IMG/VR virus record: IMGVR_UViG_3300037419_001472
Span: 1-64,000 of that record
Direction: 5' to 3' (one strand)
Origin: a virus
DNA length: 64,000 nucleotides
Shown here: piece after piece, positions 7,833-55,757 of the stretch
Layout of the letters: each line of letters begins with the position of its first letter
Position numbering within the stretch: position 1 is the first letter of the stretch
Made by a program: the position numbers and the translations under genes
The notes under the pieces: model-generated
The model's database searches: none
Seen by the model: the letters and a program-made list of their open reading frames with translations, nothing else
Told to the model about the DNA's origin: nothing

Positions 7833-8972
7833 TTACCTATCGCGAGTAAGCGGCATTACCACGTAGGTCCCGCCGTCCTCGACCTTGAAGATCGCGGCGT
7901 TCTTGCCGTCGGTCATCTCCAGCTTGACCTCGGCGTCCTGGGGGACCATCTTGAACCAGTCGCGGAGGTAGCGGGGGTCGAAGGTGATGTCCACCGGGCC
8001 GCCCTGCGTCGCCAGGTCCAGCTCGACCTCGGACTCGCCCACGTCGGCCGCATTCGTCGTGACGACGAGCCGCTCGGGATCGAACCGGAAGTCTGCCCCG
8101 CGAGACTCCTCGCTCGTCGTGATCGCGGCCTGCTCGACGGCCAGGGCGAACGGCTCGACCTGGAACCGGCAGCTCGCCGAGCTGCTGCTGGGGAACACGT
8201 CCTGGTAGCGGGGAAAACGGCCCTCGACGAGCCGCGAGTAGATCTCGGCCCGCTCCGTGCGGACCAGGATGGCCGAGCCATTCGCGACGCCAGCCAGGTG
8301 GACCGGCGGGTCGTCGTCCGTGATCGACTTCAAAATCAACCGCAGTGCCTTGGCCGGGATGACCGGGTTCGGGTTGCCCGAGAAGCCCTTGCCCTCGACC
8401 TCGGCCGGGACGACCTGCAAGGCGAGCCGGCGGCCGTCCGTGCCGACGAGCGATGCCCGCCCCTCGGGGAATTCGAGCAGCGTCCCGCCCAGGGCATAGC
8501 GCGTGCTCTCCACGTCGGTGGCGAACGCGGTCCGGGCGATCAGCTTGCGGACATTGCACGCCATGATGACGTGATAGTCTGCCGCATCGAAGGCCGGGAC
8601 CTCGGGGAAGACGCTCGGGTCCTCGGAGGGAAGCTTGTGCTTGCTCTTGCGGCCCCGGATCGTGAACGCATTCTCGTCTTCCAACGTGAGCGTCATCTCG
8701 TCGTCCTGGCACGTCCGCAGGATCGACGTGAAGCGGGCGGGCAGGACGAGCCGGGCCGGAGCGTCGGCCTTGATGCCGAGCACCAGCTGGCGGATGCCGA
8801 CCTCCAGGTCTGTCGTCTGGAGCAGCGAGCCGCCGTCGGGGTCGACGACGAGCAGGCTGTTCTGCAAGATCGGCTTGGGCGAGCGGGCGGGCACGACGCC
8901 GCTCACGGCGGCGATGGCCTCGAGCATGGGGAGCCGCTCGAATCGGATCGTCTGGGTCGCGGTCGCGGTCAT
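7833..8972 (-). CDS. dnaN: DNA polymerase III beta sliding clamp (DnaN)
   Basis: 379 aa. The N-terminus (FERLPMLEAIAAVSGVVPARSPKPILQNSLL) and overall three-domain length and pattern are typical of DnaN. Confidence 0.85.
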   Translation of the reverse strand: MTATATQTIRFERLPMLEAIAAVSGVVPARSPKPILQNSLLVVDPDGGSLLQTTDLEVGIRQLVLGIKADAPARLVLPARFTSILRTCQDDEMTLTLEDENAFTIRGRKSKHKLPSEDPSVFPEVPAFDAADYHVIMACNVRKLIARTAFATDVESTRYALGGTLLEFPEGRASLVGTDGRRLALQVVPAEVEGKGFSGNPNPVIPAKALRLILKSITDDDPPVHLAGVANGSAILVRTERAEIYSRLVEGRFPRYQDVFPSSSSASCRFQVEPFALAVEQAAITTSEESRGADFRFDPERLVVTTNAADVGESEVELDLATQGGPVDITFDPRYLRDWFKMVPQDAEVKLEMTDGKNAAIFKVEDGGTYVVMPLTRDR

Positions 8973-11684: not shown

Positions 11685-12035
11685 TCATTGCGCGGCCTGA
11701 TGGGAGCGGATCCGCTCAGCCGCTTCCAGGATCAGCGCGGCCGGGAAGAACCGTTCCAAGGGTAGGCCCAGGCCGATGATGATCCGGTGGAGGGTCCGCC
11801 ACATCGGCTCGACGTCGCCGGCCTCGAGGTGCCAGTAGTGAGCCGTGGTCATCCCCAGGGCGGTCGCGGCCGCCCGCCCGCTGGGATAGCCGGCCTCGCG
11901 CCTCGCCTCGCGCAGTGCGCTGGCCAGCTCCGTCTTCGGCTCGGCTTTTGTGCTCAGTCTCATCGTCTTCATCGTCTTCATCGTCTTCATCGTCTTCATC
12001 GTCTTCATTGTCTTCATTGTCTTCATTGTCTTCAT
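11685..12035 (-). CDS. XRE-family HTH regulator with N-terminal (MKT)x8 repeat
   Basis: HTH segment LREARREAGYPSGRAAATALGMTTAHYWHLEAGDVEP. The N-terminus is encoded by 8 tandem ATGAAGAC(A/G) units, so the true start could be any of 9 ATGs. Confidence 0.7.
   Translation of the reverse strand: MKTMKTMKTMKTMKTMKTMKTMKTMRLSTKAEPKTELASALREARREAGYPSGRAAATALGMTTAHYWHLEAGDVEPMWRTLHRIIIGLGLPLERFFPAALILEAAERIRSHQAAQ
11961..12035. repeat. 9-bp tandem repeat, 8 copies (5x CATCGTCTT, 3x CATTGTCTT on plus strand)
   Basis: Directly visible in the sequence. Each unit carries an in-frame ATG on the minus strand. Confidence 0.95.
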
Positions 12036-12044
12036 CAATCAACC

Positions 12045-26783: not shown

Positions 26784-28358
26784 ATGGCAGCCGCGACGCT
26801 CGACCAGACGGATCCCCTGGCCGAGCCGGCGGCCCGCTTCGACCCTGACGCCGAGGTGGCCAAGTGCGCGGCGAACTGCGCCTACTTCATCAATGCCTAT
26901 GGAATTATTGATGATAGTCAGGGCCACGGCGAGAATGCCACCGGCACGATGCCGTTCCAGCTCTGGCCGGCCCAGGTCCGTCTGATCTGGGAGCTGATGG
27001 CGTTCCGCCTGCTCGTGCTGCTCAAGGCCCGCCAGCTCGGCATGAGCTGGGCCGTCTGTGGCTACGTGCTCTGGCGGTGCCTATTCCAGCGCGGGCAACT
27101 GATCTTTTTGCTCTCGAAGGGGCAGAAAGAGGCCAACGAGCTGCTGCGCCGGGTGAAGGCGATCTATCAGCGGCTGCCTCAATGGCTCCGCGACCGGCTG
27201 CCCCGGGTCGATCCGCGCAAGGACAATGCCAGCGAGATCCTCTGGACCAACGGGTCCTCGATCCAGTCGCTGCCCGCGACGCGCAACGCGGGCATCGGCA
27301 ACGCCGCGTCCGTCGTGGTGATGGATGAAGCCGCGCACATGAAGTATGGCGATGAGCTGTACCTCAACATCAAGCCGACGATCGACGCCGGCGGCCAGCT
27401 CATCCTGCTCTCGACGGCCAACGGGATCGGCGGCCTGTTCCACACGATCTGGGAGAAGGCGACCGAGGGGCTGAACGGTTTCCGGACCATCTTCATCCCC
27501 TGGTGGTGCCGGCCCGGCCGGGACCGCAAGTGGTTCCGGGCAAGGGTCGCGGAGTCCAACGACCCCAAGCTGATCCCGCAGAACTACCCGGCCAACCCGG
27601 TCGAGGCGTTCCTGGCCAGCGGCAACATGCGGTTCGATGCCGCATGGATCAATGCCCAGGCCCAGAACCTCCGCGAGCCGCTCGCGCCGGCCGAGTTGCC
27701 GCCCGCGCTGCGTGACATCCCTGGCCTCAAGGTCTGGACGCTGCCCCAGCCGGGGCGGTCCTACATCCTCGGCGGGGACGTGTCGGAGGGGCTGGAGACG
27801 GGCGACTATGATGCCTGCCCCGTGCTGGATGCCGAGACATGGGAACAGGTTGCCGAGATCCATGGGCACTGGGAGCCGGATGAGTACGCGGCCGCGCTCA
27901 TGAAGGTCGCGGACCACTACAACCACGCCTGGGTCGCCATCGAGCGGAACAACCACGGGCATGCGGTGCTGATCGCGTTCGCGCTGGCACGCGACCCGGA
28001 GACGGACGAGCCACGACCCTTCACGCGGGTCTACAACGGTGAGGATGGCCGCCCTGGCTTTTTGACCACGGCCAAGTCCAAGGGTCCGGGCGTGGACCTG
28101 ATCGCCGCGGCCCTGCGGGATGGCCTGGTGACGATCCGCTCGGTGGCGTTGCTGAATGAGCTGCGGCACTTCAAGCGGCTGCGCGGCGGCAAGCTGGGCG
28201 CGACCAAAGGCAAGCATGACGACCGCGTGATGGGTCTGCTGGTCGCTCTCTGCTCGCTGCGTCTCGGGCACCTGCGGCCATCTCAGGGCGCGCCGGCCGC
28301 CGGTGGCGGCGAGCGAAAGCCAACCTCGAAGTACCTGGGGCACCACCATGCCAGATGA
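26784..28358 (+). CDS. terminase large subunit
   Basis: KARQLGMSW ATPase motif, Walker B VVVMDEAAHM, and a C-terminal nuclease-like region. 524 aa. Confidence 0.85.
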   Translation: MAAATLDQTDPLAEPAARFDPDAEVAKCAANCAYFINAYGIIDDSQGHGENATGTMPFQLWPAQVRLIWELMAFRLLVLLKARQLGMSWAVCGYVLWRCLFQRGQLIFLLSKGQKEANELLRRVKAIYQRLPQWLRDRLPRVDPRKDNASEILWTNGSSIQSLPATRNAGIGNAASVVVMDEAAHMKYGDELYLNIKPTIDAGGQLILLSTANGIGGLFHTIWEKATEGLNGFRTIFIPWWCRPGRDRKWFRARVAESNDPKLIPQNYPANPVEAFLASGNMRFDAAWINAQAQNLREPLAPAELPPALRDIPGLKVWTLPQPGRSYILGGDVSEGLETGDYDACPVLDAETWEQVAEIHGHWEPDEYAAALMKVADHYNHAWVAIERNNHGHAVLIAFALARDPETDEPRPFTRVYNGEDGRPGFLTTAKSKGPGVDLIAAALRDGLVTIRSVALLNELRHFKRLRGGKLGATKGKHDDRVMGLLVALCSLRLGHLRPSQGAPAAGGGERKPTSKYLGHHHAR

Positions 28359-47969: not shown

Positions 47970-48398
47970 ATGATATTGCAACGATGCAACCATTGCCCCG
48001 TCGTCCCCGATCGGGAGTGCCTTGGGACCACTGCGGCGTTCGGCTACATGTGCGAATTCGCCCAGAGCGAGGATCCGGTCAAAGTCCGGCATGTCGTCGA
48101 GCGATCGGCGATCGGAGTAGATCCCCAACCGCCTGGGATGATCGCGCGGACGGCATCGCTCGCTGTCGCAGTCGTGGCGCACATCGCAACCGGCATGCAT
48201 CGCGTGGACGACGCAGTTAGGGACGCCCGGCTGGCGATTTGCCAGACGAACGAATGCGGCCACTACCGGACCGAGGAAGGGGCGCCGGCCTGCCTGGCAT
48301 GCGGGTGCGGACGGCGGGGCCTGGAGATCAAGGCCGGGTGGGCCGAGCAGCAGTGCCCGCTCGACCCACCGCGGTGGGGGCCGGTTGAGGTTACTTGA
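47970..48398 (+). CDS. Cys-rich small protein
   Basis: CNHCP...C and ICQTNECGHY...CLACGCG...CP motifs. Start uncertain (47970, 48048 or 48138). Confidence 0.35.
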   Translation: MILQRCNHCPVVPDRECLGTTAAFGYMCEFAQSEDPVKVRHVVERSAIGVDPQPPGMIARTASLAVAVVAHIATGMHRVDDAVRDARLAICQTNECGHYRTEEGAPACLACGCGRRGLEIKAGWAEQQCPLDPPRWGPVEVT

Positions 48399-49968
48399 CC
48401 TCGCGCTGGCCCAGGTGGGCCTTGTAGAACGGCTGATTGACGTCGGTCGTGTTGAAGCCCTCGCTCGGCTGGGGCGAAACGCCCTGGACCGTGTCGAGCG
48501 TGCTGGTCACGACCATGCCGCTCCGGGCGAAAAGCGTCACGAGCCGACGGTCATTTTTGAGCACCGGCGCCGGCGAAGCCGTGGCCGGCGGATAATTCCC
48601 GGGCCCCGGAGTGGTGCCCGCCATCGCGTCGGCGTCCAGCGGCAGCTCGTAGTAAGTCACGCTCGCCGTGTTTGCCGGGTTCGGGTTCGGGACTCCCGCA
48701 GTGGTCCCCCAGACGGCTCCGCGCGCGTAGACGTCCTCGCGGGCCGCGAGCCAGAAGTCCAGGAACGGAATGGGGTTCATCGATGTCGCCGACGAGTACA
48801 TCGTCGTGGGCACGTAACTGCCGTTCGGATTGAGCATCACGTCAACCGAAAGCGATCCAGGGTCGACCGGCAAGCGCGACCGTTCCTGGAGTTTGTTCCA
48901 GGATGTCGCGTCGATCACCACGCCGGCCGGCAGGAGGATCTCACGTCCACCGGGCGTGGGCACAGGCCGTCGTTCGATTGAGTAGGCGGAATCCCAAAAG
49001 TGAGACTTACCGTTGCCGTTGGCCCATGCTGGCGAAGGGCTGAACGCTGAGGGAGCAGAGTCGCGGAGATTCCCAACGTTGAGTCCCACCCAGTCCTCGC
49101 GCTCCGTCCACTCCAGGGCGTCGTCTACGACCCCATCAGCGTTCTGGTCGTATCCATCCCATCCCTGGTCGACATAGCCGTCGTGGTCGTCGTCCTCTCC
49201 GTTGACCAAAAACAGAAACTCGGGCGTCGGCGGATTGGGGATCGGATTGCCAGCGGAGTCGTAGTAGGTCCGGACCAGAGGCGATGGTGTGCCAGGAGGG
49301 CCGACATTGACGAACCACTCGAGATTGCCCTGGTTGATTGCCAGAGGTGCCTTCGGATTGATCGTGCAAGGGCCAACGACCGTGTAAGCGCGGCCCGTGT
49401 CGCCGAACTTGATCTTGTCGCCCACCCTCACATTCCACCACCAGTTGACCGGCTCGTTGGGAATGGCGCCCGGTGTGATGAATCCGCCCACAAAGGGGGA
49501 CTCTTCGATCATGAGCACGTTTGCTGGCGTGCTGGAGTCGGGAAACGGATAGGTCGCGCCGTTGGTGATCGGATGGGCCGGAGGAAAGGTGGCCGTCGCC
49601 CCTCCAGGAGGTAGCTGGGGGCCGACACTGAACTTGCCGGCGGTATAGTCGGCGGCTGGCTCAATCGGGATCAGTCGGTTGTAGGCAAGCTGAAGCGTGC
49701 CGGCACCGACCGTGCCGACCGCCGGAAGCGTGAGCATAGGGTCGGGCATGAGCCGCAGGCCACGCGGCTCATTCTGGCGGATGGCCGCGTCCCTCGCCCC
49801 CGCAATCGCCCCCGTCAAGACCTGAGCCGCGTCGGTTATGCTTCGCCCTGTCAGTGAGTCGCGGATCAGGGGCAGCGCGATAAGCGACGCAATCAGGATG
49901 ATCGCGAGAACCACCAAGATCTCAACGAGCGTAAACCCTGGGCGGCGGTGACGTGATCGGCGGAACAT
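48391..49968 (-). CDS. prepilin-type N-terminal cleavage/methylation domain protein, large minor-(pseudo)pilin-like
   Basis: RRPG/FTLVEILVVLAIILIASLIAL prepilin signal. 525 aa. Acidic Ca-binding-like NGEDDDHDGYVDQGWDGYDQNADGVVDD. Confidence 0.8.
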   Translation of the reverse strand: MFRRSRHRRPGFTLVEILVVLAIILIASLIALPLIRDSLTGRSITDAAQVLTGAIAGARDAAIRQNEPRGLRLMPDPMLTLPAVGTVGAGTLQLAYNRLIPIEPAADYTAGKFSVGPQLPPGGATATFPPAHPITNGATYPFPDSSTPANVLMIEESPFVGGFITPGAIPNEPVNWWWNVRVGDKIKFGDTGRAYTVVGPCTINPKAPLAINQGNLEWFVNVGPPGTPSPLVRTYYDSAGNPIPNPPTPEFLFLVNGEDDDHDGYVDQGWDGYDQNADGVVDDALEWTEREDWVGLNVGNLRDSAPSAFSPSPAWANGNGKSHFWDSAYSIERRPVPTPGGREILLPAGVVIDATSWNKLQERSRLPVDPGSLSVDVMLNPNGSYVPTTMYSSATSMNPIPFLDFWLAAREDVYARGAVWGTTAGVPNPNPANTASVTYYELPLDADAMAGTTPGPGNYPPATASPAPVLKNDRRLVTLFARSGMVVTSTLDTVQGVSPQPSEGFNTTDVNQPFYKAHLGQREVK

Positions 49969-51182: not shown

Positions 51183-51656
51183 TCAATGCCTGCCGCCCTT
51201 GTCCTTGCCGGCATGGTTCCGGGCCGAGGCCTCGGGCATCCGCCGGCCCGGCATCCGGATCGGCTGGCCGACCGGGGGCAGCTCCTGCGGGGCTGAGGCG
51301 GGCTGAGCCGGGGGAGGAACCAGGGGAGCGCCCAGGAGTCGGCGCAGCGATTCATCTGGCCCCAGGCGGCGGATCGCCTCCCAGCACAACTGTTCCTCGG
51401 GCGGCAACCCCTGGGCTAGCTTCGGGGTCTGGACCCCGGCAATCTCGTCCGGGTCATCGACCCGAGGGTCGCAGAGATACTCAACCGGCACGCCCAGGAA
51501 GCGAGCCATGTTAAGTAGATCCTCGGGTGAGGGGTGGCCTGTCCCCTGGACCCACTTCGAGATCCTCGACTGCGCCTTGTGAATGAAGGTGGCCAGGTCA
51601 TTCTGACTCTTGTTCAACTCACCGAGCCGTCTGGTGATCTTTTCACCTAACGTCAT
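51183..51656 (-). CDS. CI-like XRE-family repressor
   Basis: HTH segment LGEKITRRLGELNKSQNDLATFIHKAQSRISKWVQGTGHPSPEDLLNMARFLGV. Divergent from a cro-like gene. Start at internal ATG 51656. Confidence 0.7.
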   Translation of the reverse strand: MTLGEKITRRLGELNKSQNDLATFIHKAQSRISKWVQGTGHPSPEDLLNMARFLGVPVEYLCDPRVDDPDEIAGVQTPKLAQGLPPEEQLCWEAIRRLGPDESLRRLLGAPLVPPPAQPASAPQELPPVGQPIRMPGRRMPEASARNHAGKDKGGRH

Positions 51657-51769
51657 GTCAGCACTGGGGTCTCGGGAAAGAGGCGGTGTCAGTGGAGCCA
51701 CACTCACACTACTTGTTCCGATCAATTTCGTAACCCCCGGCTTTCTGGAAAACCCGCATTTTTTCCGCA

Positions 51770-51832
51770 TCGGGATTGAAACCGGAATTTCAGCGGGCTA
51801 GAATGATCTACGTTCGGGATTGAAAACGGAAT
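51770..51832 (+). promoter_or_regulatory. switch region: two direct repeats TCGGGATTGAAA(A)C(C/G)GAAT and promoter TTGAAA-17-TAGAAT (51776-51804)
   Basis: The repeats begin at 51770 and 51814. The first contains the -35 of a good sigma70-like promoter facing the cro-like gene. Confidence 0.6.
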
Positions 51833-52328: not shown

Positions 52329-53066
52329 GTGACCCAGACTCCTGACATCTTCGCGGCGCTGGCTGCCCCTTTTTTGGCGGGTGAGGTCAAGACGCGTACC
52401 CAGGGTGGCCGCCAGCTCTCCTACATCACCGCGCGGACGGCGATGAACCGGCTCGATACCGTGCTCGGCCCTGAGAACTGGCGCGACTCCTACCGCTCGG
52501 GGGGCGAAAACTCGATCGTCTGCCGCCTCGAGATCCGCCTCAACAGCGGCGAGTGGCTGGCCAAGGAAGATGCGGGCGGGTTCGCTGGCATGTCCGACTC
52601 GGGTGATGACGACAAGTCCGGGTACTCGGACAGCTTCAAGCGGGCCTGTGTCAAGTTCGGGATCGGCCGGTACCTCTACCGCGACGGCGTCCCGGACTAT
52701 GCCCAGGGTGAGCACGGCGAGGTCCGCGACGAGCCGGCCCGCAGTCAGCCGCAGCCGCCGCGTGACAGCCACCGTGAGGAGCCGCGCGACCACGCGCCGC
52801 GCGGCAATGGGAACGGCGGTGGGTACTCCGGGCCGCCCCGCTCGGGCAAGGCCTTGTTCGCCTGGACCAAGGAACAAGAGCAGCGTCACTCGGTCGGTCT
52901 GCTCAAGTACCTCAACGGCTGGGCCAAGTTGCAGGACTTCCCCGGCCGGATGGTGGACTGGGATGCCGAGCAGGTCGCCCTGGCCCATGCCGAGGCGGTC
53001 CGCAAGCTCCAGTCGGTCCAGGCCGGCGGGTATGAGGAAGCCCACGGCGAGGATGGCACCTACTGA
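52329..53066 (+). CDS. Rad52/Sak-type single-strand annealing protein
   Basis: LSYITARTAMNRLDTVLGPENW...KSGYSDSFKRACVKFGIGRYLY is the Rad52/22 signature. GTG start. Confidence 0.8.
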   Translation: MTQTPDIFAALAAPFLAGEVKTRTQGGRQLSYITARTAMNRLDTVLGPENWRDSYRSGGENSIVCRLEIRLNSGEWLAKEDAGGFAGMSDSGDDDKSGYSDSFKRACVKFGIGRYLYRDGVPDYAQGEHGEVRDEPARSQPQPPRDSHREEPRDHAPRGNGNGGGYSGPPRSGKALFAWTKEQEQRHSVGLLKYLNGWAKLQDFPGRMVDWDAEQVALAHAEAVRKLQSVQAGGYEEAHGEDGTY

Positions 53067-53191
53067 GCGCTGAGGCCTGACGGGTGCCCGGCCCGCGACG
53101 AGGCGGGCCGGGCTTGATCTCCCCATCTGAACCCTGCCGGCCGCCGACCCCGCGCCGGGCCGATCGCCGTGCGCCCACAGGCACCCCACCG

Positions 53192-53272
53192 ATGAAGTGG
53201 TTTACGCTCTACACCGAGATCATCAATGACCTCAAGGTCATGAAATCGCTCGCCAAGCAGGAGGGACGTTGA
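53192..53272 (+). pseudogene. 26-codon stub duplicating the N-terminus of a replisome-organizer gene
   Basis: MKWFTLYTEIINDLKV compared with ALPWFRLYHEARNDAKL of the next gene. AT-richer, and it stops at the next gene's start. Confidence 0.4.
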
Positions 53273-54351
53273 TGGCTCTCCCCTGGTTCCGGCTCTATCA
53301 CGAGGCTCGCAATGACGCCAAGCTGCGTCATCTGACCGACGCGCAGTTCCGTGTCTGGTTCAACCTGCTGTGCCTGGCTTCCGAGCAGCCTGATCGCGGC
53401 ACCATCGCATCGATGAATGTCAAACTGATGGCCCTCGAGGTCGCCGGCGGGGACGTTGATCTTCTCAAGGAAACGCTGGAAACACTGGAAACGTTTCATT
53501 GCGTTTCATTGCGTTTCATCAGCGTTTCCGAGGCCTCGATTTGCTTCATCAATTTCCAGAAGAGACAGTTTCAGGGCGTTTCAGGAAACGGTAAGACCTC
53601 GACGGATCGAGTTCGCAAACATCGTGAAGCCAAGAGGTTGCGTCAACATGAAACAGGTGAAACAAGTGAAACGCCAGTGAAACGCGATGAAACGCTAGTG
53701 AAACGCGATGAAACGCCCCCAGATACAGAGTCAGAGGCAGAAACAGAGTCTCTCGCTCCGCGGGCGCGCGAGACGACGGCCCCCACGGGGGGGATGATCT
53801 GCGTCGATGAGCCGGAGGACTTCGGCGACTCCGGGCTCGGGCTGCCTCCCTTCCCGGCCGATGGCGGGTATGCCCTGGATGGACCTGAGTACCCGTTCAA
53901 GCCGCCGGTCGAGCAGGTCCGGGCGATCTACGACGAGCTCTGGCGGGCCTTCGGCCACCGCCGGCTCTGTGCGGATTACCTCCGCAATCGCGGCCGCTAT
54001 GACTCGCGGGCCTGGCGCTGGGCGATCCAGCGGTGCCAGACGAAGGGGCTGCGGCCTCGCTCGCTCGGCTATCTCGGCAAGATCGCCTCAGACTGGCAAC
54101 CGGGCGATGAACCCGCGCTACCCCGGCCGGCGCCGGCCCCGGTGAAGGTCCATGAGCCGATCCCCCAGCGCGAGCCGCTGACCCCCAGTCAGAAGGCCCG
54201 GTATGCCCCCCTGCCGGGGCATCGGCTAGTCGATCCTGACGCCGGGATCCCGATCGCGGAACGCATGGCCAAACTCGCGCCGAACCATCCCCTCCGGAAA
54301 GCGTGGGAAGCCGGCCATGGACCTGTGGCCGTGGCCAGGGAGGCGCAATGA
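53272..54351 (+). CDS. phage replisome organizer / replication initiator (N-terminal Phage_rep_org_N-like)
   Basis: WFRLYHEARNDAKLRHLTDAQFRVWFNLLCLASE. SD GGAGGGA lies 5 nt upstream. Contains the iteron array. ATGA-coupled to DnaB. Confidence 0.7.
   Translation: MALPWFRLYHEARNDAKLRHLTDAQFRVWFNLLCLASEQPDRGTIASMNVKLMALEVAGGDVDLLKETLETLETFHCVSLRFISVSEASICFINFQKRQFQGVSGNGKTSTDRVRKHREAKRLRQHETGETSETPVKRDETLVKRDETPPDTESEAETESLAPRARETTAPTGGMICVDEPEDFGDSGLGLPPFPADGGYALDGPEYPFKPPVEQVRAIYDELWRAFGHRRLCADYLRNRGRYDSRAWRWAIQRCQTKGLRPRSLGYLGKIASDWQPGDEPALPRPAPAPVKVHEPIPQREPLTPSQKARYAPLPGHRLVDPDAGIPIAERMAKLAPNHPLRKAWEAGHGPVAVAREAQ
53469..53714. repeat. iteron array (origin-like): 17 copies of the GAAAC/GTTTC hexamer core
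   Basis: 3x GGAAAC (9-bp spacing), then inverted 3x GTTTCA plus GTTTCC (10-11 bp). Next come GTTTCA x2 and GGAAAC (53568-53589), then 7x TGAAAC at 9-11 bp spacing (53649-53714). Confidence 0.85.
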
Positions 54352-55757
54352 GCCGCACCCCAGCCCGGAACGGCCAGGGGGGACGGATCCCCGATGCCCC
54401 AGATGTCCAGGAATCCCTCCGGCTCTGGCCGCACTCGGTCGAGGCTGAGAATGGGGTCCTCGGCTCGGTCCTGCTCGATCCCGAGGTCCTGAATGACGTC
54501 GCGGGCCTGCTCAAGCCCGAGGATTTTTTCGGGGCCGCGCGGGGCGAGTGCTGGCAGGTGATCCTGGACCTGTACCAGACCGCCAGGGCGATCGACCCGA
54601 TCACGGTCGGGGACGAGTTGAAGCGGGCGGGCAAGTTCGACGACATCGGGGGTGACTTCGGGCTGTCCCAGATCCTCGGCGCGGTCCCCCATTCCGCCAA
54701 CGCGAAGCACTACGCCGAGGTCGTCCGGGAAAAGTCGGTCGCCCGCCAACTGGCCCATGCGACCCGATCGATCCAGGGCGACATCGCCAGCCAGACCCAC
54801 ACCGCCGATGACCTCCTGGAACGGGCAGAAACGGCCGTCTTCGCGATCGCCGAGAGCCGGACCCAGGAGAGCACGCATCAGGCCAAGGTCGCCGTCTCCG
54901 GCGCCCTGGCCCGGCTGGAGCGGCGCCGCCGCGGCCCATCGGGGATCTCCTGCGGCCTGGATGCCCTGGACCGGATGACTGACGGGTTTCAGCCCGGCCA
55001 ACTCGTGATCCTGGCCGCGCGGCCCAGCATGGGCAAGACCCAGCTCGGCCTGAACGTTTTCGAGTACTGCACGCTGGTCCGGCGCGAGCCGGCCCTATTC
55101 GTGAGCCTTGAGATGAGCAGCAATGAGATCGGCGAGCGGCTGGCGGTTTGCCGGTCAGGCGTCCCGAATTACAAGTTCAAGGATTTTGATTCAATCACGA
55201 CGGACGAGTGGGGCCGGCTGCTCAAGGCGGATACGGACTGGGCCAACGCCCCCGCCATGATTGACGACTCCCCCGCGCTGTCGACGCTCCAGATCACGGC
55301 CCTGACGCGGCGATGGAAGGCTCGTGCCGGGCTCAAGCTGCTGATCGTGGACTATCTGCAACTCGTGACCCCCAGCGAGGGAGAGTCCCGCCAGGAAGAG
55401 GTGGCCTCGATCAGCCGTGGCCTGAAGCGGATCGCCCGTGAGCTGGGCATCGCGGTCGTCTGCCTCAGCCAGCTCAACCGATCCAACGAGCAGCGACAGG
55501 ACAAGAAACCGCGGATGTCCGACCTCCGCGAGTCCGGGGCCATCGAGCAGGATGCCGACGTGGTGCTCCTGATGCACCGGCCTGATTACTACGACCCCAG
55601 CGACAAGCCGGGTTACTGCGAGCTGATCGTGGCGAAGAACCGCAACGGCGCGGTCGGCTCCGTCGACCTGAGGTTCTTCAAGGACCAGGGGCGGTTCGAG
55701 CCCTGGGTTTCCGACGTGGACCCGTCCCGGCCCGAGATCGACCCCTCCCAATTCTGA
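54348..55757 (+). CDS. dnaB: replicative DNA helicase DnaB
   Basis: PHSVEAENGVLGSVLLDP N-domain, Walker A ARPSMGKT, Walker B LLIVDYLQL, and SQLNRS...RESGAIEQDADVV. Confidence 0.9.
   Translation: MSRTPARNGQGGRIPDAPDVQESLRLWPHSVEAENGVLGSVLLDPEVLNDVAGLLKPEDFFGAARGECWQVILDLYQTARAIDPITVGDELKRAGKFDDIGGDFGLSQILGAVPHSANAKHYAEVVREKSVARQLAHATRSIQGDIASQTHTADDLLERAETAVFAIAESRTQESTHQAKVAVSGALARLERRRRGPSGISCGLDALDRMTDGFQPGQLVILAARPSMGKTQLGLNVFEYCTLVRREPALFVSLEMSSNEIGERLAVCRSGVPNYKFKDFDSITTDEWGRLLKADTDWANAPAMIDDSPALSTLQITALTRRWKARAGLKLLIVDYLQLVTPSEGESRQEEVASISRGLKRIARELGIAVVCLSQLNRSNEQRQDKKPRMSDLRESGAIEQDADVVLLMHRPDYYDPSDKPGYCELIVAKNRNGAVGSVDLRFFKDQGRFEPWVSDVDPSRPEIDPSQF

What the first reader, a model, noticed from the sequence alone, without database searches (positions are those of the whole stretch)
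53469..53714. Origin-like iteron array embedded inside the replication-initiator gene (lambda O/ori-style)
Seen: 17 copies of the GAAAC/GTTTC core in about 250 bp.
- Left cluster: 3 GGAAAC, then an inverted 3 GTTTCA plus GTTTCC, with a GAAACGTTTC dyad at 53488-53497.
- Middle trio at 53568-53589.
- Right cluster: 7 direct TGAAAC repeats at 9-11 bp (helical) spacing, four of them as (G/A)TGAAACGC.

The region is the AT-richest part of the gene. It encodes low-complexity linker peptides (ETLETLETFHCVSLRF, HETGETSETPVKRDETLVKRDET).

Established: lambdoid O genes contain their own ori iterons.

Inference: this is the phage origin, bound by the protein that it encodes.
Basis: partly seen in the sequence, partly recalled or inferred. 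Interest (0 to 1): 0.7.

Follow-up and report, generated by a model that had tools for sequence, protein, structure and literature searches.

The report
Phage replication origin inside initiator gene
A dense array of short DNA repeats inside a phage replication-initiator gene is almost certainly the phage's replication origin, a known arrangement (lambda, SPP1, lactococcal phages) seen here in a large, mostly unannotated protein family.

Summary
Positions 53469-53714 hold 17 GAAAC/GTTTC cores; no other 250-bp stretch of the window holds more than 3. All eight TGAAACGC in the 64 kb lie here, and this is the least stable 250-mer of the window. Recoding the same peptide with synonymous codons gives 2.8 cores on average (maximum 11), so the repeat is kept at the DNA level.

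The host gene (53272-54351) encodes a confidently predicted winged-helix domain, a basic helix, a disordered linker and a possible DnaD-like C-terminal domain. It sits between an Erf/Rad52-type recombinase gene and a translationally coupled DnaB helicase gene, downstream of a cI-like repressor.

In 47 of 54 non-redundant related loci, direct repeats occupy the same place in the gene. They are spaced 10 or 11 bp apart (21 bp = 7 codons = 2 helical turns) and are usually followed by the least stable tract of the locus. Repeat sequence differs between relatives and tracks a motif in the basic helix.

SPP1 gene 38 (oriL) and TP901-1 rep, both experimentally shown origins, have the same layout.

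Verdict: an intragenic iteron origin, and a new member of a known kind. The protein is not a lambda O homologue. Binding and origin firing are inferred, not shown.

The parts
53272..54351 (+). Replication initiator (replisome-organiser type) gene, 359 aa. Its ATG is preceded by AGGAGGG at 53259-53265.
   Evidence: ORF. PHROG 10469 'DnaD-like helicase loader', E 7e-7. 94 homologues share the N-terminal 110-170 aa. 15 of 88 relatives hit PF09681 and 11 hit PF07261. The window's own N-domain hits PF09681 below the cut-off, 13.6 bits.
53272..53571 (+). Coding region for the N-terminal winged-helix domain (aa 1-100).
   Evidence: AlphaFold2 pLDDT is 91-98 for aa 11-90. Predicted elements: H4-14, H23-37, E44-49, H50-58, H62-74, E78-82, E87-92, H95-100. 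Foldseek finds wHTH proteins including plasmid initiators RepA_N and RepE and viral 'replisome organizer' models. All PDB matches have E > 0.01.
53469..53529 (.). Left iteron cluster: 3 x GGAAAC, then the inverted 3 x GTTTCA plus GTTTCC. The GAAACGTTTC dyad is at 53488-53497. It encodes aa 66-86, the end of helix 62-74 and the wing.
   Evidence: Close relatives L065, L066 and L068 keep the same cluster.
53530..53567 (.). AT-rich spacer between the left and middle clusters. It holds the least stable 40-mer of the gene and is one candidate unwinding site.
   Evidence: The 40-mer at 53535 has dG -50.1 against a window mean of -62.4. Only 0.3% of window 40-mers are less stable.
53568..53589 (.). 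Middle trio: GTTTCA, GTTTCA, GGAAAC, forming an imperfect dyad GCGTTTCAGGAAACG.
   Evidence: In L065 and L066 the same place holds the perfect palindrome GCGTTTCACGAAACGC, and the distance to the right cluster is a conserved 65 nt.
53602..53652 (+). Coding region for the basic helix aa 111-127 (TDRVRKHREAKRLRQHE), the candidate determinant of iteron specificity.
   Evidence: Helix predicted. The motif R-V-x-x-(H/Y)-R accompanies NAACG iterons in 28 of 29 loci (L012 ends H-F), and R-(K/Q)-x-x-x-R accompanies TCACG iterons in 13 of 13. The classes are interspersed on a tree built from the core domain alone.
53649..53716 (.). Right iteron cluster: 7 direct TGAAAC, the last 5 as TGAAACGC. Spacing is 9, 9, 11, 10, 11, 10, and the 21-bp double unit equals 7 codons. 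It encodes aa 126-148, at the start of the disordered linker.
   Evidence: (TRF period 21, 93% matches). 47 of 54 relatives have at least 4 direct repeats in the same zone, with spacing peaks at 10 and 11 bp.
53720..53750 (.). Purine-rich tract CAGATACAGAGTC...CAGAAACAGAGTC just after the last iteron. It is positionally equivalent to the tract that is the least stable DNA of most related loci, and is the second unwinding-element candidate.
   Evidence: Repeat D5. z = +2.15 at 53720. In 20 of 38 non-redundant loci the least stable 40-mer of the whole locus lies at gene +385 to +490.
53908..54096 (+). C-terminal helical domain (aa 213-275), including Y267-x3-I271-x3-W275 (54070-54096). Possibly DnaD-like.
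   Evidence: Helices predicted. Weak profile hit to the DnaD-like protein 2zc2, E 0.13. Weak hhalign match to the same motif in TP901-1 Rep, E 0.076. No Pfam hit.
54348..55757 (+). DnaB-type replicative helicase gene. Its ATG overlaps the initiator stop codon (ATGA).
   Evidence: PF03796 1e-86 and PF00772 2e-27. PHROG 19. A DnaB gene directly follows the initiator gene in at least 9 related loci.
51776..51804 (+). Sigma-70-like promoter (TTGAAA-17-TAGAAT), divergent from the repressor gene. It probably drives the rightward early operon that contains the origin.
   Evidence: This is a consensus match only.
51183..51770 (-). cI-like HTH repressor gene (context).
   Evidence: PF01381 6e-12. PHROGs list it as a transcriptional repressor.
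52329..53066 (+). Rad52/Erf-type single-strand annealing protein gene (context).
   Evidence: PF04098 3e-10. PHROG 1097, 9e-23.

Best explanation
This is the theta-type replication origin of a temperate phage or prophage, embedded in the gene for its own initiator.

Proposed mechanism:
1. The initiator's N-terminal winged-helix domain and the following basic helix (aa 111-127) bind the TGAAACGC iterons.
2. The iterons repeat every 10-11 bp, so the bound protomers line up on one face of the helix. The oppositely oriented left and right clusters could allow bending or wrapping into an O-some-like complex.
3. This strains and opens one of the adjacent low-stability tracts, either 53530-53567 or the purine-rich 53720-53750.
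4. The C-terminal domain then brings in the phage DnaB helicase encoded by the next, translationally coupled gene. No separate loader gene lies between them.
5. Host primase and polymerase complete the replisome.

Shown here:
- The repeat array, its statistics and its maintenance at the DNA level.
- Helical phasing and local duplex instability.
- The protein's predicted fold and its gene neighbourhood.
- Conservation of the same layout, with changing iteron sequence, across relatives.
- Association between the basic-helix motif and the iteron class.

Inferred by analogy with SPP1 oriL, TP901-1/Tuc2009 and lambda:
- Binding of the iterons by the encoded protein.
- Which tract melts.
- Helicase recruitment.
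- That replication actually starts here.
For: The array is far beyond chance and beyond what the peptide requires. The core is read in all three codon phases and on both strands.

It is the least stable 250-mer of the 64 kb.

The gene looks like an initiator. It matches PHROG 10469, its relatives carry PF09681 and PF07261, and the model is a winged helix followed by a basic helix. Its neighbours are a repressor, a single-strand annealing protein and a coupled DnaB.

Relatives show the same layout:
- In 39 of 62 loci the top 6-mer cluster of the whole locus lies at gene +100 to +600.
- 47 of 54 non-redundant loci have at least 4 direct repeats at +290 to +520, with spacing modes of 10 bp (71 cases) and 11 bp (46 cases).
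- Close relatives keep GAAAC in the same three-cluster layout, while L067 has switched its iteron.
- The least stable 40-mer of the locus follows the iterons in 20 of 38 loci.
- Iteron class co-varies with the basic-helix motif in 42 of 42 classified loci.

Experimentally established origins share the layout. SPP1 gene 38 has GAAACGACA-type repeats plus an AT-rich tract at gene +355 to +470 (PMC5737612, PMC6316719). TP901-1 rep has repeats plus an AT-rich tract between its HTH and DnaD domains (PMC8965321). [quoted passage not shown]
Against: - There is no experimental evidence for this element or for any close relative.
- The window protein passes no curated family threshold. Its similarity to SPP1 G38P and TP901-1 Rep is marginal.
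- In the window the post-iteron tract is short and only moderately unstable (z about 2), so the unwinding site is uncertain.
- GC skew gives no signal.
- The association between helix motif and iteron class is confounded. The helix is encoded immediately next to the iterons, so the two would be co-inherited in mosaic recombination anyway.
- The contig reaches about 78 kb, so roughly 14 kb outside the window was not examined for a second origin.
Confidence: 0.8

Rival explanations
1. The repeats are binding sites for the initiator or another DNA-binding protein, but they act in regulation rather than as the origin. Examples would be autorepression, a transcriptional roadblock within the early operon, or copy-number control by handcuffing. 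The origin would then lie elsewhere.
For: Iterons in plasmids commonly double as autoregulatory or handcuffing sites (established knowledge). The array lies inside the transcribed early operon, downstream of a promoter-like site. Oppositely oriented clusters suit looping.
Against: The array coincides with the least stable DNA of the window. In relatives it is followed by the least stable tract of the locus, which regulation alone does not need. Homologous positions in SPP1 and TP901-1 are proven origins (PMC5737612, PMC8965321). No second iteron cluster exists in the 64 kb. The two roles are also not mutually exclusive.
Confidence: 0.08
2. The repeats are binding sites for a different protein, such as a host factor, a partition protein or a phage regulator, and not for the product of the gene that contains them.
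For: Binding by the encoded protein has not been tested. Purine-rich GATACA and AGAGAAG repeats beside the iterons in relatives could be sites for a second factor.
Against: Iteron class tracks a motif in the encoded protein in 42 of 42 loci, across a core-domain tree on which the classes are interspersed. The array always travels with this gene in very different genomes, from Brevibacillus to Chloroflexi. No ParA- or ParB-like gene lies next to it.
Confidence: 0.06
3. The inverted clusters act as a nucleic-acid structure. This could be a long hairpin in the mRNA that controls initiator translation, or a hairpin in single-stranded DNA that serves as a priming or loading signal. Either way they would not be duplex protein-binding sites.
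For: Arms 53501-53528 and 53689-53716 are 89% complementary. The 266-nt strand folds with z = -4.9 against shuffles. The inverted arrangement is kept in L065, L066 and L068.
Against: Only 14 of the 47 relatives with a right-hand array also have the left cluster, so most have direct repeats alone and no arm to pair with. The dominant 10 or 11-bp spacing is a property of duplex DNA. No Rfam family matches. Complementary arms follow automatically once the same site is used in both orientations.
Confidence: 0.04
4. The repeats are a by-product of a low-complexity, repetitive linker selected at the protein level, or of replication slippage, and have no DNA-level function.
For: The right cluster encodes a disordered linker with pLDDT about 50. 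Repetitive acidic linkers are common.
Against: Synonymous recoding of the same peptide yields 2.8 cores (maximum 11 in 20,000) against 17 observed. The core is read in three phases and on both strands, giving unrelated peptides such as ET, VKR, FH, VS and RF. The 10 or 11-bp periods are not multiples of 3. Relatives keep the DNA motif while the peptides differ.
Confidence: 0.02

Closest known systems
Bacillus phage SPP1 replisome organiser G38P and oriL
   Same: The origin is embedded in the initiator gene and is made of direct repeats bound by the gene's own product, followed by an AT-rich unwinding element (PMC5737612, PMC6316719). In SPP1 gene 38 the repeats (GAAACGACA and GAAAAAGACAC) and the AT-rich tract lie at gene +355 to +470. 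That is the same relative position as the window's right cluster and purine tract, and they share a GAAACG core. A DnaB-type helicase is encoded downstream. The initiator has no AAA+ domain.
   Different: Protein similarity is marginal (hhalign E 0.015, probability 3%). The G38P C-terminus is PF09524, which is absent here. SPP1 has a separate loader gene 39 between the initiator and the helicase; the window has none. SPP1 has a second site, oriR; no second cluster is present in the 64 kb. The window also has left and middle clusters inside the folded-domain coding region.
Lactococcal P335-group replisome organisers (TP901-1 ORF13, Tuc2009 Rep2009, r1t ORF11)
   Same: These proteins bind direct repeats located within their own genes, and those repeats serve as the origin (PMC8965321). 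TP901-1 Rep has an N-terminal HTH, then repeats plus an AT-rich tract in the middle of the gene, then a DnaD-type C-terminal domain. The window gene has the same order of parts. A single-strand annealing protein gene lies upstream in both.
   Different: The N-domains belong to different Pfam families: HTH_36 in TP901-1, a sub-threshold PF09681 match here. The C-terminal DnaD similarity of the window protein is only a weak motif-level match. TP901-1 has no DnaB gene downstream. The host genomes are AT-rich Firmicutes, against a 66% GC element here.
Lambda O protein and ori-lambda (and the lambdoid P22 gene 18 / gene 12 module)
   Same: Iterons plus an AT-rich tract lie in the middle of the initiator gene, inside the rightward early operon next to the immunity region (PMC7466680). 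P22 couples its initiator to its own DnaB-like helicase (my own knowledge, not checked here), as the window does.
   Different: The window protein is not homologous to lambda O; it has no Phage_rep_O hit even at E 10. Lambda has four 19-bp palindromic iterons, against 17 short 8-bp cores in three clusters here. Lambda uses the loader P and the host DnaB.
RepA_N plasmid initiators (pSK41 and pTZ2162 RepA; PLE RepA)
   Same: A winged-helix N-terminal domain binds iterons, and the C-terminal domain is host- or partner-specific (PMC7145576). Foldseek places the window's N-domain near these structures (4pql, 4pt7, 5kbj). From my own knowledge, the origin of RepA_N replicons lies within the rep gene.
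   Different: The window protein has no PF06970 hit. The fold matches are weak (E 0.03-0.12). [quoted passage not shown]

Membership tests
Iteron-type origin embedded in the initiator gene (functional class) | Three or more repeats of one short sequence, clustered far beyond chance | tested here: met
   17 cores in 246 bp against at most 3 elsewhere. All 8 TGAAACGC of the window lie here.
Iteron-type origin embedded in the initiator gene (functional class) | Repeats phased with the DNA helix | tested here: met
   Spacing is 9-11 bp in the window. Across the family the modes are 10 and 11 bp, alternating to give 21 bp.
Iteron-type origin embedded in the initiator gene (functional class) | Adjacent easily melted (AT-rich) unwinding element | tested here: inconclusive
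   The whole array is the least stable 250-mer of the window. Relatives have a strong tract right after the iterons. In the window the equivalent tract is short (z about 2) and a second candidate exists at 53530-53567.
Iteron-type origin embedded in the initiator gene (functional class) | Located inside the gene of a replication initiator, next to helicase or loader genes | tested here: met
Iteron-type origin embedded in the initiator gene (functional class) | Initiator binds the repeats and the fragment supports initiation | not testable with these tools
   The only indirect support is the association between iteron class and the basic-helix motif.
Phage_rep_org_N replisome organisers (PF09681 / TIGR01714) | N-terminal domain scores above the curated cut-off | tested here: inconclusive
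   The window N-domain scores 13.6 bits (E 0.066) against a cut-off of 23.3, although it aligns to profile positions 24-118 of 121. 15 of 88 relatives match at E < 0.01. NCBIfam gives no hit.
DnaD-domain proteins (PF07261, DDBH2) | C-terminal DnaD domain with the YxxxIxxxW motif | tested here: inconclusive
   Y267, I271 and W275 are present. There are weak hits to 2zc2 (E 0.13) and to TP901-1 Rep (E 0.076). There is no Pfam hit.
SPP1 G38P family | Phg_2220_C C-terminal domain (PF09524) | tested here: not met
   G38P hits PF09524 at 2e-20; the window protein has no hit.
SPP1 G38P family | N-terminal domain homologous to G38P | tested here: inconclusive
   hhalign gives E 0.015 and probability 3%, with a collinear alignment over 80 columns.
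Lambda O family (Phage_rep_O) | Sequence membership in the lambda O N-terminal family | tested here: not met
   There is no Pfam hit at E <= 0.01 for the whole protein, or at E <= 10 for the N-domain.
Lambda O family (Phage_rep_O) | Partner is a P-type loader of the host DnaB | tested here: not met
   The next gene is itself a DnaB-type helicase.
RepA_N plasmid initiators (PF06970) | Sequence membership in the RepA_N N-terminal family | tested here: not met
   There is no Pfam hit. The only link is weak fold similarity to 4pql, 4pt7 and 5kbj.

The most novel reading that the evidence does not exclude
The family could serve as a natural recognition-code dataset for a replication initiator. The basic helix after the winged-helix domain (window aa 111-127) would read the two variable central bases of a TG-NN-ACGC iteron. 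R-V-x-x-(H/Y)-R goes with AA or TA, and R-(K/Q)-x-x-x-R goes with TC. This helix and its target DNA, encoded side by side, would swap together as a roughly 150-bp specificity cassette that sets replicon incompatibility among thousands of phages.

Two further points fit this reading:
- The 10+11 bp unit equals 7 codons and 2 helical turns, which satisfies the reading frame and the helical phase at once.
- In some members, including the window, further iterons sit inside the coding sequence of the winged-helix domain's own third helix and wing.
Probability: 0.3. Interest if true: 0.5.

Novelty: new member of a known kind. Interest (0 to 1): 0.33.

Why it matters
It gives a confident origin annotation for an uncultured, high-GC temperate phage, and by extension for a very large and mostly unannotated initiator family. 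A profile of the family finds 12,200 cluster representatives at E <= 1e-3, in hosts as far apart as Brevibacillus and Chloroflexi.

It shows that the SPP1 and lactococcal 'replisome organiser with internal origin' design is not confined to Firmicutes phages.

The family-wide pattern yields concrete, cheap experiments on how initiator specificity evolves while the binding sites are locked inside a coding sequence. The pattern has three parts:
- 21-bp double iterons.
- An unstable purine-rich tract just downstream.
- A basic-helix motif that tracks the iteron class.

It does not reveal a new principle of replication.

Tried and rejected
- tblastn of the initiator against 50,697 phage records found nothing. 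The more typical relative P0027 reaches Listeria A500 'replisome organizer' and streptococcal 'replication initiation protein' genes at only 22-30% identity.
- Pfam and NCBIfam gave no above-threshold family for the window protein.
- A sequence search of the PDB gave only a marginal DnaD-like hit. Foldseek matches were generic wHTH, all with E > 0.01.
- Profile comparisons with SPP1 G38P and TP901-1 Rep were too weak to claim homology.
- GC skew and cumulative skew across the window show no switch at the array.
- DnaA boxes: no TTATCCACA with up to 1 mismatch anywhere in the 64 kb, against 3.2 expected. A DnaA-type origin was therefore not pursued.
- Rfam gave nothing meaningful on 52800-54500.
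- The protein-level repeat explanation was rejected by the synonymous-recoding test.
- The r1t replisome-organiser paper (PMC136552) is not held.
- I did not resolve which of the two low-stability tracts is the unwinding element. I also did not confirm the fold of the C-terminal domain on its own.
Full report
**1. The observation**

The sequence at 53469-53714 is as described. It holds eleven GAAAC and six GTTTC cores.
- Left cluster, 53469-53529: three GGAAAC, then three GTTTCA and one GTTTCC in the opposite orientation, meeting at the dyad GAAACGTTTC.
- Middle trio, 53568-53589.
- Right cluster, 53649-53716: seven direct TGAAAC, spaced 9, 9, 11, 10, 11 and 10 bp.

Tandem Repeats Finder reports a 21-bp unit at 93% matches. 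No other 250-bp stretch of the window has more than 3 cores. All eight TGAAACGC of the 64 kb lie here, against 1.5 expected. The array is the strongest k-mer cluster of the window for k = 5 to 8.

Three null models fall far short of the observed 17:
- Mononucleotide shuffles of the region give 0.54 cores.
- Codon-order shuffles give 1.9 (maximum 9).
- Random synonymous recoding of the same peptide gives 2.8 (maximum 11 in 20,000).

The cores are read in all three codon phases and on both strands, which yields the unrelated peptide fragments ET, VKR, FH, VS and RF. The repeat is therefore maintained at the DNA level and is not a by-product of the peptide. GC is 47.6% here, against 66% for the window. 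The 250-mer starting at 53455 is the least stable of the whole window by nearest-neighbour energy.

**2. The gene and its surroundings**

The array lies in ORF 53272-54351 (359 aa), which has a strong Shine-Dalgarno sequence.

Pfam and NCBIfam give no above-threshold hit. PHROGs gives 'DnaD-like helicase loader', phrog_10469, at E 7e-7. On its own, the N-terminal 130 aa aligns to almost the full Phage_rep_org_N profile, but below the cut-off (13.6 against 23.3 bits).

Homologues share only the N-terminal 110-170 aa. Of 88 scanned, 15 hit PF09681 and 11 hit the DnaD domain PF07261.

An AlphaFold2 model built with 88 sequences shows:
- a confident winged-helix domain (aa 1-100, pLDDT above 90);
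- a basic helix at aa 111-127;
- a disordered stretch at aa 128-212;
- a helical C-terminal domain containing Y267-x3-I271-x3-W275.

That C-terminal motif gives only marginal matches to DnaD-like proteins. Foldseek returns generic wHTH regulators, the plasmid initiators RepA_N and RepE, and viral models named replisome organiser or DnaD-domain protein. The scores are weak.

Mapped onto the model, the left cluster encodes the end of helix 62-74 and the wing. The middle trio encodes a loop. The right cluster encodes the start of the disordered linker.

The gene order is as follows:
- a cI-like repressor on the minus strand (51183-51770);
- a divergent sigma-70-like promoter (51776-51804);
- a Rad52/Erf-type annealing protein (52329-53066);
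- the initiator;
- a DnaB-type helicase (54348-55757), whose ATG overlaps the initiator's stop codon.

A large terminase lies at 26784-28358. This is the early replication module of a temperate phage or prophage.

**3. Relatives**

I fetched 13 viral, 8 genomic and 43 metagenomic loci that encode relatives, plus four closer relatives by exact protein look-up.

- In 39 of 62 loci the most clustered 6-mer of the entire locus lies at gene +100 to +600.
- In 47 of 54 non-redundant loci, one 5-mer occurs at least 4 times in direct orientation at +290 to +520. The spacings between copies peak sharply at 10 bp (71 cases) and 11 bp (46 cases), often strictly alternating. The resulting 21-bp unit equals 7 codons and 2 helical turns, so it satisfies the reading frame and the helical phase at once.
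- Fourteen loci also carry the same motif in the left zone.
- The close relatives L065, L066 and L068 keep GAAAC/GTTTC in the same three-cluster layout, with 13-17 copies. The middle site is the perfect palindrome GCGTTTCACGAAACGC in L065 and L066, and all four genes including the window's keep a dyad there; the 65-nt distance to the right cluster holds in the window, L065 and L066. L067 has switched to GTAACGC- and GGAACGC-type sites.
- Across the family the iteron has the form TG-NN-ACG(C/A). Variants include GTAACG, TAACGA, TAACGC, GAAACG and TCACGC.
- Just after the right cluster most relatives have a purine-rich tract (AGATACAGATACAGA, or GAGAAGAGAAGAG). In 20 of 38 non-redundant loci of at least 3 kb, this is the least stable 40-mer of the whole locus. 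The window has a shorter version at 53720-53750 (z about 2). Its single least stable 40-mer is instead at 53535, between the left and middle clusters.
- A DnaB gene directly follows the initiator in at least nine relatives.
- A profile of the family finds 12,200 representatives at 50% identity with E <= 1e-3, and 4,574 with E <= 1e-10.
- Hosts named in genome records include Brevibacillus, Chloroflexi and Thermomicrobiales, Syntrophobacteraceae and Dethiobacter.

**4. Co-variation of iteron and protein**

I sorted the loci by iteron class and looked at the basic helix.
- All 29 loci with NAACG iterons carry R-V there, and 28 carry the full R-V-x-x-(H/Y)-R. L012 ends in H-F.
- All 13 loci with TCACG iterons carry R-(K/Q)-x-x-x-R.
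- On a neighbour-joining tree built from the core winged-helix residues alone, the TCACG loci fall in at least five separate places.

This fits the helix reading the variable bases of the iteron. It would also arise if the helix and the adjacent iterons simply move together as one piece of DNA in mosaic recombination, and the tree is not robust. I treat the result as suggestive.

**5. Comparison with known systems**

- SPP1: oriL is embedded in gene 38. It consists of repeats bound by G38P plus an AT-rich unwinding element, and a 356-bp fragment is necessary and sufficient in vitro (PMC5737612, PMC6316719). Reading gene 38 directly, GAAACGACA and GAAAAAGACAC repeats followed by an AT-rich tract lie at gene +355 to +470. 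This is the same relative position as here, with a shared GAAACG core.
- TP901-1 and Tuc2009: their replisome organisers bind direct repeats within their own genes, and those repeats are the origins (PMC8965321). TP901-1 rep shows an HTH, then repeats plus an AT-rich tract, then a DnaD domain.
- RepA_N plasmid initiators bind iterons through a winged-helix N-terminal domain (PMC7145576).

The window element works like these. By sequence it is not a lambda O, G38P C-terminal or RepA_N family member. Its membership of Phage_rep_org_N and of the DnaD domain family is sub-threshold.

**6. Mechanism and rivals**

The best explanation, at about 0.8 confidence, is an intragenic iteron origin. Phased binding of the initiator to TGAAACGC would open a neighbouring low-stability tract, and the C-terminal domain would recruit the phage DnaB, with no separate loader gene. 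Binding, melting, recruitment and firing are all inferred.

The rivals are:
- a regulatory-only binding array;
- sites for another protein;
- an RNA or single-stranded DNA hairpin (the strand folds with z = -4.9);
- a protein-level repeat.

They are less likely, for the reasons given under each. The protein-level repeat is effectively excluded.

**7. Verdict**

The most novel reading not excluded is the specificity-cassette idea: the helix-iteron code, the 7-codon/2-turn unit, and iterons inside the DNA-binding domain's own coding sequence.

Noticed in passing
window 53192-53272 (+); L067 about 36 nt upstream of its gene start at 5001: A 26-codon ORF, MKWFTLYTEIINDLKVMKSLAKQEGR, lies just upstream of the initiator gene. 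Its first 16 residues mimic the family's N-terminus (MKWFRLYTEARNDAKL), and its TGA overlaps the initiator ATG (TGATG). L067 has a similar truncated duplicate (MKWFRLYS) just upstream of its initiator. These may be recombination scars at the conserved 5' end of the gene, or a translationally coupled leader ORF.
   Followed up: partly
window 11960-12035: A 9-bp tandem repeat (CATCGTCTT / CATTGTCTT, 8 copies) is the second strongest k-mer cluster of the window. It encodes an N-terminal (MKT)8 run in the minus-strand ORF 11685-12038. It could be a slippage-prone contingency repeat.
   Followed up: no
window 48391-49968 (-), 7833-8972 (-), 4771-6252 (-): The 525-aa protein next to the repressor carries a prepilin-type N-terminal methylation motif, PF07963. 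The window also encodes a DNA polymerase III beta clamp and a helicase, PHROG 62. The borders between phage and host DNA were not determined.
   Followed up: no
L034 and L035 (contig Ga0209510_1000223, 84 kb): The same relative occurs twice on one contig, about 37.9 kb apart, with identical flanks. This probably reflects a concatemeric or doubled assembly of a phage of about 38 kb.
   Followed up: no
L001, L003, L019, L032, L033, L050 at gene +385 to +490; window 53720-53750: Hexamer repeats GATACA or ACAGAT (peptides DTDTDT, TDTESETD) recur just after the iterons in relatives from very different hosts. They are often the least stable DNA of the locus. They could be the unwinding element itself or sites for a second factor.
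   Followed up: partly
window 53272-54351, C-terminal half (aa 150-359): The C-terminal half of the initiator has no tblastn match in any of the 71 fetched loci. Only three homologues (P0008, P0012, P0042) align over 80-89% of the query, apart from the identical P0001. N-terminal domains in this family are combined with many different C-termini.
   Followed up: partly
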